NCBI GenBank assembly: GCA_002633005.1 | Contig: NMRA01000164.1 | Span: forward strand, 619,920-683,919 | Source: Phoronis australis | Taxonomy: Eukaryota > Animalia > Phoronida | DNA length: 64,000 nucleotides | Direction of reading: 5' to 3' | Shown here: piece by piece, positions 41,101 to 44,100 of the stretch | Layout of the letters: each line of letters opens with the position of its first letter | Numbering within the stretch: the first letter of the stretch is position 1 | Made by a program: the position numbers and the translations under genes | The notes under the pieces: generated by a model | What the model was told of the DNA's origin: nothing | Database searches by the model: none | The model's input: the letters and a program-made list of their open reading frames with translations, nothing else

Positions 41101-44100
41101 AAAGCACTTGTCACAGCGTGACTTAAAATTCTCCCCCGCCTCATTACGTGAGCTGCGAGCTGTACTAATTAACGCTATAAATTTGAGTGGCAGAGTGAAT
41201 ATTATTTCATGATTTTTAAATGGAACGAAATTTTAATCATGTTGTTAAAGGAAATTGACTGCCACATTGATTCAATGCATCAGTAGTAGATTCAAGTCAG
41301 TATAATCTTCTATAATCCTAACCTACTTTAAAAACTTTAATTTGATTCTGTTCAGTTACCGTTATAAACCGGGTCTTAACTTTTTTTTATCGGAGTTGAT
41401 TGCTAGGCTAGAGGCAGTATTGGTCACCGAACTATCGGTTCCTCGGTAACAGTTGGTCGGCGTCGAGAATAAATTAACCCGCTAGCCTAGAGCTCTGAGA
41501 AGCAAAAATTCGAAAGAAAAAGTGTCCGCCACAGCGCCACCTTTAATATGATTTTACTACTTAACGAAATACGCATTGTGTGTCTATTGGACAAAAATAA
41601 AACTCGTATCACGCTGTGATTGACCTGTAATGGTGCAGCGAAGGCCTGTCGGAGTTGGTGATATGTATCAGCGCATTAATTTTCAAAATATCCATTAAGG
41701 AACGCCGGAGATATGGCGCAAAAAATCGACAAATTAGAATGAAGTCAACTGAAAACCTCGAATGACTCGAGAACGGTTGGTTGTATCGGAAACTTCACTA
41801 CAGAGCAACAGACTAAGAGAAATTTCATTTCGCCAAGTAAAAACAAAAATCAGGCAAACTTTAGGACAAAATGTCGTACGTAGTGAAACTTCATTCTGCT
41901 TAGAAATATTCTATCACATTTTCCTTCCAACTTTTCATTGAACTAATACTGTTGTCTTTGTACGAAATGAAAAGTGTACCACTGACGTATATTTCCTAAT
42001 ATGTTTCGAAAGTACCGTAAACGTTCGGGTTAACGCCCTGGGCGGTTAAATTGGCAAACCCGACAAATCGGGGGTGGGCGGTTAACCAGAAATGGGCGCT
42101 TAAACGTGAAACTTAAAAAAATCCAGGGTGGGCGGTTAAATCCACCTAAAGTAGGGGGTGGGCGGTTAACTGAGCATGGGCGGTAACCCGAACGTTTACG
42201 GTAGTTCCATAGACCATGAACTTGTGGCGAGGAAGATTCGCACGTAAAAAGCAAACAATGTACCATATCTCACGTTTCGTGAATTTTGTCCCATAATTCA
42301 ACATTCAAAAATCGCCCAACAATCACCTTAATGGTGGCCATTTTGCCAGGTTAAGCTGATAAGGTCTCGGGCATTCTCGCGAAGAACTTATAGTCAATCA
42401 CTCGCGTGGTTTTGCGTAAGTTTGCCTGATCTCACTCTGCGTGCAACAAACTTGGTCTACAGAACGCTACTTGGTCTGGGTGCGTATCCACCAAACTTAG
42501 CAGATGGCACGCTCCGATAAGTGAATAAATGATCCTATTATACGTACATATTTTCCAAAGTGCATTATACTCGTGAAGTCATATGGGGCACTTGTATCGA
42601 CCACACGTTCCTCGTATTTTGTAAAAGCGTGAAGAAAGCCCTGTTCGACATTCTCCTTCTTAATTTGCACAAACTTATCTCTATCTGGCCGTTGATGTTG
42701 GTGGGGTAACCCAATGGCGTGACCCAGTACGTGGAGGTACACTCCGAACTAAAAGCAACAACGAATAGCAAGCTCACGTTACTCAACTGAATGAAAACCC
42801 TATTTCGAAAACTATTTTATAGCAAGCAAATAGTTCTGACCCATACCACTGACTGGCAAGACGAGGAGTTAGAGAGCCTTCCACGAGTACGGCCTTCGTT
42901 GTGAACTGGTAGGCCTATTTACTTTACTGGACGGACGCTGGAAAGTCTAAGCTAACACAATTACCATTACAGCTGTCTCCACAGTTACTATAAACTATTT
43001 CACCACAATTGTTTTTCGTTTTGCCGCCTGGTATTTCCATACTTTTTGCCTCTCAGACAAGCATCTGGGCACACCTACTATCTGGTGATGACGTAAAAAT
43101 TGAACTTTTGGTTCTAGGGCGCGTTCCAAAAAAACTGACTTAGCCAAGACAAATCTTAAATTTCAGCTAATTTTAAGTAAAACTTAAATTTGTCCCAAGT
43201 CCGTTTGAAGAACGATGTCTTACGTTTGACTTAGGTTTTTGATCTGAGCCTTGTTTTAATTTTGACTAACTTAGCGGATGTGGAAGTTTCAAAGTTTGGA
43301 AATTGAAACAAATTTTAGACTGCATAGCTAAAATGTAATCTATGACCGTGCTTTCGATGATTTTAATTCGTAAGAACTGTTCGAACAATAAACGGAGGAA
43401 ACCCGCAGCTATTAAATTCACAGAATAACAAACCTAGTGAGTGCAAGGATGACTCCAAATTGCCAGTCAACTATAAATTTGAATCCCGGAGCGTGCTAGG
43501 AATCGCTCTCGAAAGCGGTGCTATATCTATCCACTAAAACTGATCAACATGAACTTTACACCACTGTGGAACCAAAGTTTTCGTAACTTGCATATGACTG
43601 ACAATCACCTTGTCCTGCGTTGCGGATGATTATAATAAACATTTAAATGTACCACTCTCCCGCTTTTTCAACAAAGAAATCGGTTTTCGACTTGTTGCGC
43701 AACGCTCGTGGGGCGGTCACGAGGGATTGTTATCGTTGGCCATATAGGTGAATCTTACGCACGCAAATTACGTGCGTAAATTAATTCTTGTTCGTGGCGT
43801 AAATTAATTACTAATGGCTTAAATTAATTATGTATATTAACTTTTAGCGCGTTGAGTTAATTCTCTGTGGCGTAAATTAACTTTGAACGGCGAAAATTGA
43901 TAACGTGCGCGCAAATTAACTCTTAACTCAATTTTTTACGGCGTAAAGTATTTATTAGCTACGTAAATTACATGTGGCGTAATTTTACCTTTGGTCAAAT
44001 GGACGAGCGTTACGCAAGTAAATTAAATTTAATTTACATTGCAAGGAATTTAGTAAATTTGCGCAAGAAATAATTAATTCAGACCATTAAAAGTTAATTT

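What the first reader, a model, noticed from the sequence alone, without database searches (positions are those of the whole stretch)
42548..42748. Astacin domain with three separate catalytic-site substitutions in an intact gene: candidate pseudo-protease
Seen: the zinc motif is [19 protein letters not shown] and the Met-turn is SIMHF. Established: the astacin consensus is HExxHxxGxxHExxRxDRD and SxMHY. The first Glu is the general base, the Glu after the third His anchors the mature N-terminus, and the Tyr is the tyrosine-switch zinc/substrate ligand. Here they are Val (GTA, 42730-42728), Gln (CAA, 42700-42698) and Phe (TTT, 42559-42557). All three His, the four domain Cys, the pro-peptide Asp, the furin site, all splice sites and about 907 codons of frame are preserved. 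Inference: this is a folded, zinc-binding, non-proteolytic astacin maintained for binding, decoy or carrier function, rather than a decaying pseudogene. Each change is a single nucleotide, but three independent errors at these positions are unlikely.
Basis: partly seen in the sequence, partly recalled or inferred. Interest (0 to 1): 0.85.

Follow-up and report, generated by a model that had tools for sequence, protein, structure and literature searches.

The report
Expressed protease-dead astacin with ShK array
An animal gene is spliced and expressed as a relative of astacin zinc proteases that lacks the catalytic glutamate and carries twelve ShK toxin-like repeats, so it likely makes a non-cutting binding protein, and similar paired active-site changes appear to have arisen separately in jellyfish and tardigrade astacins.

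Summary
The three codons (Val, Gln, Phe) are in the window, in DNA contigs and in about 50-110 RNA reads per run from two other samples; only three paralogue reads differ. The gene has 15 GT-AG exons and 847 open codons: pro-astacin, EGF-like module, 12 ShK repeats. Four introns are confirmed by reads. It is expressed in 2 of 3 RNA runs; exon variants are 5 synonymous to 1 non-synonymous. Of 31 columns invariant in 49 intact relatives it loses four: both glutamates, the tyrosine and one Ile-to-Met. The mature N-terminus, which binds the second glutamate, is also four residues short. Zymogen-state features (three His, pro-peptide Asp, Met-turn, four Cys) are kept. Best reading: a pseudo-protease whose head likely stays zinc-latched and carries the ShK array. 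Only the first glutamate is decisive for catalysis. Glu-less astacin domains are not unique (17 of 200 among hits), and Glu loss goes with Tyr loss (7 of 11 versus 3 of 158) in separate lineages. No orthologue, activity assay or signal-peptide exon could be shown. A new variant of a known kind (ADAM and snake-venom pseudo-metzincins); ten literature searches found no natural pseudo-astacin described.

The parts
60560..60661 (-). Candidate first coding exon (possible signal peptide); unconfirmed
   Evidence: ATG, moderately hydrophobic end, phase-0 GTAAGT donor; no reads laid here
59493..59628 (-). Candidate pro-domain exon; unconfirmed
   Evidence: Strong acceptor and donor, phase fits the next exon, unique in the window; profile comparison with relatives found no match
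54921..55044 (-). Pro-peptide exon with ELDM motif; aspartate-switch Asp at 54970-54968
   Evidence: the Asp column is conserved in 46 of 49 relatives
50411..50493 (-). Exon with furin-type site RNKR (50486-50475) and shortened mature N-terminus (Trp is residue 6; 10 in relatives)
45622..45821 (-). Astacin domain exon with three domain Cys (45762, 45693, 45630)
   Evidence: Pfam Astacin E 9e-9; joint to 42748 in 62 and 43 reads
42548..42748 (-). Zinc-motif and Met-turn exon: three His and Met kept; Val 42730-42728, Gln 42700-42698, Phe 42559-42557
40875..41022 (-). Astacin C-terminal helix exon with the fourth Cys (40881)
   Evidence: Pfam E 4e-4; joint from 42548 in 62 and 45 reads
39939..40058 (-). 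EGF-like cysteine array typical of the molluscan subfamily
   Evidence: Aligns to relatives; joint to 39663 in 55 and 43 reads; no Pfam hit
39511..39663 (-). ShK repeat 1
37369..37503 (-). ShK repeat 2
34169..34429 (-). ShK repeats 3-4 (repeat 4 has a Lys-Tyr pair)
   Evidence: Pfam ShK E 3e-14
32323..32571 (-). ShK repeats 5-6 (repeat 6 has a Lys-Tyr pair)
29752..29910 (-). ShK repeat 7
17295..17555 (-). ShK repeats 8-9
11809..11946 (-). ShK repeat 10
9927..10109 (-). ShK-like repeat 11 (cysteine pattern only)
   Evidence: no Pfam hit
5273..5401 (-). ShK repeat 12; followed by a GT donor, so the gene may continue, or it ends at a stop eight codons further

Best explanation
This is an intact, spliced and expressed gene for a pro-astacin, EGF-like, 12-ShK protein whose catalytic glutamate is replaced by valine, so the product is predicted to be a non-proteolytic extracellular protein whose head likely stays in a zinc-latched, zymogen-like state and would fold, carry and present the ShK array that likely does the binding. 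Shown: the codons, the splicing of the catalytic region, expression, and which conserved residues are kept or lost. Inferred: everything needed in the zymogen is kept (three His, pro-peptide Asp as fourth zinc ligand, Met-turn, two disulfides, RxDRD), while everything needed only after activation is changed (general-base Glu, tyrosine switch, the Glu that anchors the new N-terminus, and the length of that N-terminus). A furin-type site survives, so the pro-peptide may be nicked but would likely stay bound in a cleft that cannot digest it. Secretion is inferred from the family; the signal exon is unconfirmed.
For: Codons fixed in RNA from two samples of another study. Spliced, stranded expression at roughly 58 and 31 RPKM, none in a third run where about 330 reads were expected. 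Exon variants 5 synonymous to 1 non-synonymous over 41 and 160 sites, pN/pS about 0.05-0.06, binomial p 0.002-0.02 depending on the minor variant and transition weighting. Of 31 columns invariant in 49 relatives only 4 are lost: both Glu, the Tyr and one Ile-to-Met; chance that all three fall among four losses is 0.0009; 3 of 7 active-site versus 1 of 24 other columns, Fisher p 0.028. [quoted passage not shown] An engineered Glu-to-Ala Limulus pro-astacin, described as catalytically impaired, folds and binds zinc through three His and the pro-peptide Asp, with the Tyr only distal (PMC9629494). 12 ShK repeats against at most 8 in 49 relatives. In ADAM1-3 the pseudo-peptidase domain is removed and the accessory domain does the binding (PMC11266112 section 4).
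Against: No activity, zinc or structure data; the spliced domain was not folded. No orthologue found (best exon identity 59%), so no dN/dS. The polymorphism test rests on six linked sites in one exon. Keeping three His and a furin site fits an open-cleft decoy equally well. The two tardigrade Glu-less domains show no pro-motif match, so latching is not general to the class. The window's domain lies on a long branch (1.5-2.9 changes per column), which may reflect relaxed constraint rather than a new role. Signal peptide and C-terminus are unconfirmed.
Confidence: 0.55

Rival explanations
1. Open-cleft decoy or trap: furin removes the pro-peptide, and the three-His zinc site with a more hydrophobic rim binds substrates or inhibitors of active paralogues without cutting them.
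For: Furin-type site and three His kept. A paralogue with the family Glu is co-expressed in X6 (3 reads). Glu loss is coupled to Tyr loss in separate lineages: 7 of 11 versus 3 of 158, Fisher 5e-8; one clade rejected, p-AU 4e-6. This suggests a favoured alternative site rather than random decay. Decoy roles are proposed for substituted zincins (PMC3650047, passages).
Against: The N-terminal anchor that stabilises the mature form is lost on both sides. The pro-peptide Asp is kept, though a dead enzyme needs no latency. No partner is known.
Confidence: 0.22
2. Vestigial head: the astacin domain has no role of its own and is kept only because it must fold for the ShK array to be secreted; its zinc site is on the way out.
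For: Long branch; 20 of 83 columns conserved at 90% or more are changed; the ShK array is expanded.
Against: All three His, Met, RxDRD and the pro-peptide Asp persist despite about 60% divergence; variants in the zinc-motif exon are mostly synonymous.
Confidence: 0.11
3. Residual or different catalysis: a weak, narrow protease, or a three-His zinc site used for non-peptide chemistry.
For: The complete zinc ligand set and Met-turn are kept. The post-His Gln and the Phe each occur in astacins with an intact Glu (14 and 3 of 158).
Against: Val cannot act as general base. Glu-to-Ala is the standard way to impair astacins (PMC9629494). Natural snake-venom metzincins with motif substitutions had undetectable activity (PMC5086652, abstract and Discussion).
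Confidence: 0.07
4. Recently inactivated duplicate decaying neutrally, or an assembly error.
For: Duplication is common in this family (PMC6409789, passages); a paralogue exists.
Against: Error is excluded by reads. 847 open codons over 50 kb with 14 GT-AG introns, regulated expression, synonymous-biased variants, and four coordinated changes including an in-frame shortening.
Confidence: 0.05

Closest known systems
Molluscan M12-ShK astacins (ELDM-type; e.g. XP_061171636.1 Saccostrea, KAK3602503.1 Potamilus; Cumia CreM12-ShK, Pinctada Pf-ALMP)
   Same: Pro-motif ELDM, furin-type site, CRYxGxYLH context, cysteine array before the ShK repeats; about 40% identity; the window's domain groups with them (SH-aLRT 91, quick trees).
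   Different: All 49 examined have both Glu and the Tyr, a 10-residue spacing to the Trp where scorable (45 of 49) and 1-8 ShK repeats. The Cumia zinc site is described as conserved, with up to 9 repeats (PMC6409789, passages).
ADAM pseudopeptidases (M12B: ADAM7 HQLGH, ADAM29 HHLGH, ADAM2/22/23, unc-71)
   Same: Metzincin domain without the general base, Met-turn kept, function through accessory domains or surface binding (PMC11266112, Table 2 and section 4).
   Different: Other subfamily; transmembrane proteins with disintegrin domains. That review's tables list no M12A member.
Catalytically inactive snake-venom metalloproteinase homologues BlatPII
   Same: Natural, expressed metzincins with motif substitutions and no detectable proteolysis; activity proposed to lie in the accessory domain (PMC5086652, abstract and Discussion).
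   Different: Reprolysin family; Glu-to-Asp or His-to-Gln changes; venom context is shown there and unknown here.
Engineered Glu-to-Ala Limulus pro-astacin (PDB 8A28)
   Same: Shows that a Glu-less astacin zymogen folds and binds zinc via three His and the pro-peptide Asp (PMC9629494, passages).
   Different: Laboratory mutant that keeps the Tyr, the family Glu and the N-terminus.
Unstudied Glu-less astacin domains in databases (Sanderia EP00794 P016171; Paramacrobiotus XP_055353116.1 and XP_055357025.1; Myxine UPI00358F0B2E; unnamed P0051, P0058, P0114)
   Same: Three His kept and the Glu replaced, mostly by Leu or Met; most also have Phe or Leu for the Tyr.
   Different: Independent origin, other architectures; expression not checked; none among those seen has Val or combines all three changes.

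Membership tests
Astacin peptidases (MEROPS M12A, PF01400) | Profile match to the astacin domain | tested here: met
   Exon hits E 6e-20, 9e-9, 4e-4
Astacin peptidases (MEROPS M12A, PF01400) | Three zinc-binding His of HExxHxxGxxH | tested here: met
Astacin peptidases (MEROPS M12A, PF01400) | General-base Glu after the first His | tested here: not met
   Val in genome and RNA
Astacin peptidases (MEROPS M12A, PF01400) | Family-specific Glu followed by xxRxDRD | tested here: not met
   Gln; RxDRD kept
Astacin peptidases (MEROPS M12A, PF01400) | SxMHY Met-turn with zinc-binding Tyr | tested here: not met
   Met kept, Phe for Tyr
Astacin peptidases (MEROPS M12A, PF01400) | Pro-peptide aspartate switch | tested here: met
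   ELDM variant shared with relatives; the exon is not read-confirmed
Astacin peptidases (MEROPS M12A, PF01400) | Four Cys for two disulfides | tested here: met
   All four columns kept
Astacin peptidases (MEROPS M12A, PF01400) | Mature N-terminus long enough to be buried against the family Glu | tested here: not met
   Trp at 6 versus 10 in 45 of 45 scorable relatives; assumes cleavage at the furin-type site
Astacin peptidases (MEROPS M12A, PF01400) | Signal peptide | tested here: inconclusive
   Only a candidate exon
Astacin peptidases (MEROPS M12A, PF01400) | Proteolytic activity | not testable with these tools
   Needs an assay
M12-ShK (ShKT-astacin) architecture | Astacin domain followed by ShK repeats in one transcript | tested here: met
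   Reads cover and join exons through ShK repeat 2 (the 40875/40058 joint was not among the rows shown); repeats 3-12 predicted in frame
Metallo-pseudopeptidase (non-peptidase homologue) | Catalytic residue substituted in an expressed, intact gene | tested here: met
Metallo-pseudopeptidase (non-peptidase homologue) | Purifying selection | tested here: inconclusive
   5 synonymous to 1 non-synonymous in one exon; suggestive, small, no orthologue
Metallo-pseudopeptidase (non-peptidase homologue) | Demonstrated inactivity and a non-catalytic function | not testable with these tools
   Needs protein
ShK potassium-channel toxins | Six-cysteine ShK pattern | tested here: met
   12 repeats by pattern; 8 of 9 exons hit Pfam ShK, 5 above the curated cut-off
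ShK potassium-channel toxins | Lys-Tyr dyad | tested here: inconclusive
   2 of 12 repeats; the dyad is neither sufficient nor necessary (PMC6409789, passages)
ShK potassium-channel toxins | Channel block; venom localisation | not testable with these tools
   Species and tissue labels are coded

The most novel reading that the evidence does not exclude
Astacins have repeatedly and convergently given rise to an unrecognised class of pseudo-proteases with a paired signature (aliphatic residue for the catalytic Glu plus Phe for the switch Tyr, three His kept) in which the zinc site is repurposed as a latch or ligand-binding site; this gene is an expressed, selected member in which the whole activation apparatus is dismantled and an expanded 12-repeat ShK array carries the function.
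Probability: 0.35. Interest if true: 0.72.

Novelty: new variant of a known kind. Interest (0 to 1): 0.5.

Why it matters
Pseudo-peptidases are well studied in the ADAM branch of M12, but the 2024 review of metallo-pseudopeptidases lists none for astacins, and the 2023 astacin survey kept only sequences with intact motifs. This gene is a read-verified natural case in which the residues needed only after activation are lost together, which separates zymogen-state from mature-state constraints. It also gives a test of what ShK arrays in M12-ShK proteins do when the protease is out of the picture. The coupling of Glu and Tyr loss across jellyfish, tardigrade and this lineage points to an overlooked group that automated annotation labels as proteases.

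Tried and rejected
Assembly or sequencing error: rejected. Orthologue hunts found none: word-indexed searches at 119-2000 aa and 36-118 aa, HMMER over 1.84 billion representatives (best single-domain identity 59%), profile search, metagenome contigs (15 loci, none orthologous). No genome is held for this window, so paralogues could not be listed. The ESM Atlas gave no answer. The signal-peptide-like ORF at 61753 was set aside because it has no fitting donor and resembles neighbouring repeated sequence. A possible exon at 30831-30641 has stops in the fitting frame. The candidate exon 59628-59493 got no profile support. The careful tree did not finish; both trees are quick trees. No structure or complex prediction was run: single exons would not form the domain, and a pro-peptide/cleft pair would pass by likeness to solved zymogens. 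Selection by a Val/Phe-bearing query as the cause of the Glu/Tyr coupling: an additive-score simulation produced no association. Earlier scan findings: nothing by place, words or sequence; eight unrelated astacin notes. The primary mutagenesis papers on astacin Glu93, Tyr149 and Glu103 were not held. Ten literature searches found no description of a natural Glu-less astacin; subscription journals and supplements were not seen.

Full report
OBSERVATION. Codons: His 42733, Val GTA 42730-42728, His 42721, His 42703, Gln CAA 42700-42698, Met 42565, Phe TTT 42559-42557. It matches Pfam Astacin at E 6e-20 and aligns without ambiguity to BMP1 and to 16 other solved sequences, which place Glu, Glu and Tyr at these columns (roles from PMC9848320, passages).

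READS. Four DNA runs of one sample hold the stretch; three RNA runs of another study share the species label. On 37250-46200, X5 and X6 show strand-specific depth on the exons and four GT-AG joints: 45622/42748 (62 and 43 reads), 42547/41021 (62, 45), 39939/39663 (55, 43), 39510/37502 (36, 39). The 40875/40058 joint was not among the 15 rows shown of 109. X7 has zero depth on all six exons, where about 330 reads were expected at X6's level; rough expression is 58 and 31 RPKM. On 42300-42960 with differences listed from 1%, depth over the three codons is about 93, 107 and 88 in X5 and 49, 54 and 52 in X6. No other letter is listed at the Val or Phe codon. At 42700, 0 of 103 X5 reads and 3 of 50 X6 reads differ; those three carry at least six other differences and a foreign loose end, so they come from a paralogue that has the family Glu. 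DNA contigs agree where they cover: X1 (7 differences in 987 bases, none at these codons), X2 (whole stretch) and X3 (Val and Gln codons only). The substitutions are therefore real and fixed in the samples seen.

GENE. Fifteen exons from 55044 to 5273, all AG..GT, give 847 codons without a stop: pro-peptide with ELDM, furin-type RNKR, astacin domain over four exons, an EGF-like cysteine array, and 12 ShK-pattern repeats. Ten of the 14 introns are predicted only. Two candidate 5' exons exist but are unconfirmed, and the last exon is followed by a donor, so neither end is settled. In the zinc-motif exon the RNA variants are 5 synonymous (one seen in only 4 reads) and 1 non-synonymous over 41 and 160 sites: pN/pS 0.05-0.06, binomial p 0.002-0.02; one more synonymous variant lies at 45694. 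The sites are few and linked.

RELATIVES. No orthologue was found. The nearest architecture is a subfamily whose named members are bivalves, gastropods, cephalopods and one nemertean, so the organism is likely a lophotrochozoan (inference). I took the 49 best-scoring of the 65 hits plus P0151 and dropped P0158, which lacks the motif, leaving 49. All 49 have both Glu and SxMHY. The window's protein keeps 63 of 83 columns conserved at 90% or more and 27 of 31 invariant columns; the four losses are the catalytic Glu, the family Glu, the switch Tyr and one Ile-to-Met (hypergeometric 0.0009; Fisher 0.028 on active-site versus other columns). For comparison, in leave-one-out the nemertean loses 7 such columns, none catalytic. 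In astacins the new N-terminus is buried and binds the family Glu (PMC9848320, PMC9629494, passages), so both partners of that contact are altered. Relatives have 1-8 ShK repeats; this gene has 12, two with a Lys-Tyr pair. In quick trees it groups with the molluscan set (SH-aLRT 91, not starred) on a long branch.

HOW UNUSUAL. Among 200 astacin domains in the 150 listed hits (of 8726 at E 0.001 or better), 17 lack the catalytic Glu, 12 of them with three His. Named ones include the jellyfish Sanderia (two domains), the tardigrade Paramacrobiotus (two proteins, each beside an intact domain), hagfish, whipworm and a mite. Among 169 domains with three His, the Met and a residue at the Tyr column, Tyr is lost in 7 of 11 Glu-less and 3 of 158 Glu-bearing domains (Fisher 5e-8; rows are not independent and were found with a Val/Phe query, though an additive-score simulation gave no such association). 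With the trait columns masked, a 31-row tree needs 6 changes of the Glu state, and a single clade of six Glu-less, Phe-bearing domains is rejected (p-AU 4e-6; group chosen by motif after related trees had been seen). From recall, not from a call: laboratory Tyr149 and Glu103 mutants of crayfish astacin retain some activity, whereas Glu93 mutants are nearly dead; I saw only the title of the 2000 paper.

MECHANISM. Kept features are those of the zymogen; lost features are those used only after activation. A Glu-to-Ala Limulus pro-astacin folds and holds zinc by three His and the pro-peptide Asp, with the Tyr distal at 3.3 A (PMC9629494, passages). The most economical model is a zinc-latched, zymogen-like head that folds and carries the protein while the enlarged ShK array binds targets (0.55). 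This parallels ADAM1-3, whose pseudo-peptidase domains are removed (PMC11266112 section 4 part 1), and BlatPII (PMC5086652 abstract and Discussion). In the two Sanderia Glu-less domains the pro-motif has Cys where Asp is usual, which fits a latch; the tardigrade domains show no pro-motif match, which does not. Rivals: open-cleft decoy 0.22, vestigial head 0.11, residual or other catalysis 0.07, decaying duplicate or error 0.05. Taken together, a non-proteolytic product is about 0.9 likely. Whether the ShK repeats act on ion channels or belong to a venom or saliva, as in the vampire snail (PMC6409789, passages), cannot be told.

KNOWN OR NEW. It is not filed as an active M12A peptidase: four defining features were tested and not met. 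It is an astacin-fold, M12-ShK non-peptidase homologue. Pseudo-metzincins are known in M12B, and substituted HExxH sites are widespread in zincins (PMC3650047, passages). The 2024 review's tables list no astacin; the 2023 astacin survey selected intact motifs. Passages of PMC8191133, PMC2824743, PMC4826915 and PMC3268031 added no natural inactive astacin. Ten searches found none described. Most subscription journals and all supplements were unseen, and MEROPS keeps a non-peptidase-homologue category that may already hold such sequences.

VERDICT. Real, expressed, probably selected pseudo-astacin with an expanded ShK array; a new variant of a known kind. Interest 0.5, raised by the coordinated loss of the activation apparatus and the apparent convergence, limited by the lack of orthologues and of any biochemical test.

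Noticed in passing
window 39305-39365: 20 (X5) and 32 (X6) sense-strand reads lie in the intron after ShK exon 1, all with two variant letters, none in X7. An AG acceptor at 39364 would add eight codons and a stop, i.e. 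a possible short one-ShK isoform. No joint was among the rows shown and no similar sequence occurs elsewhere in the window.
   Followed up: partly
run X7 on window 37250-46200: No reads on any exon while repeats are covered: tissue-, stage- or sex-specific expression, or absence of the gene in that individual.
   Followed up: no
window 42678-42716, run X6: Three reads of a co-expressed paralogue with the family Glu; its catalytic codon was not resolved.
   Followed up: partly
P0020 (Sanderia malayensis), residues about 90 and 663: Both Glu-less astacin domains have Cys in place of the pro-peptide switch Asp and Phe for the Tyr; a possible cysteine-latched pseudo-astacin.
   Followed up: partly
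P0057, P0080 (Paramacrobiotus); P0128, P0034 (names not looked up): Proteins with an intact and a Glu-less astacin domain in tandem; the Glu-less domains form their own supported pairs.
   Followed up: partly
window about 20700-29400 and 46900-50100: Introns hold long ORF remnants that look like LTR-retrotransposon gag/pol (judged by eye, not scanned), a duplicated stretch of about 1.4 kb (26200-27900 and 27850-29400) and an N gap at 23668-24283.
   Followed up: no
window 8642-9268, 34664-35311, 36119-36750, 46300-46700, 7460-7790: Fragments resembling non-LTR element proteins (by eye), a tandem repeat of about 55 bases and a long TG microsatellite.
   Followed up: no
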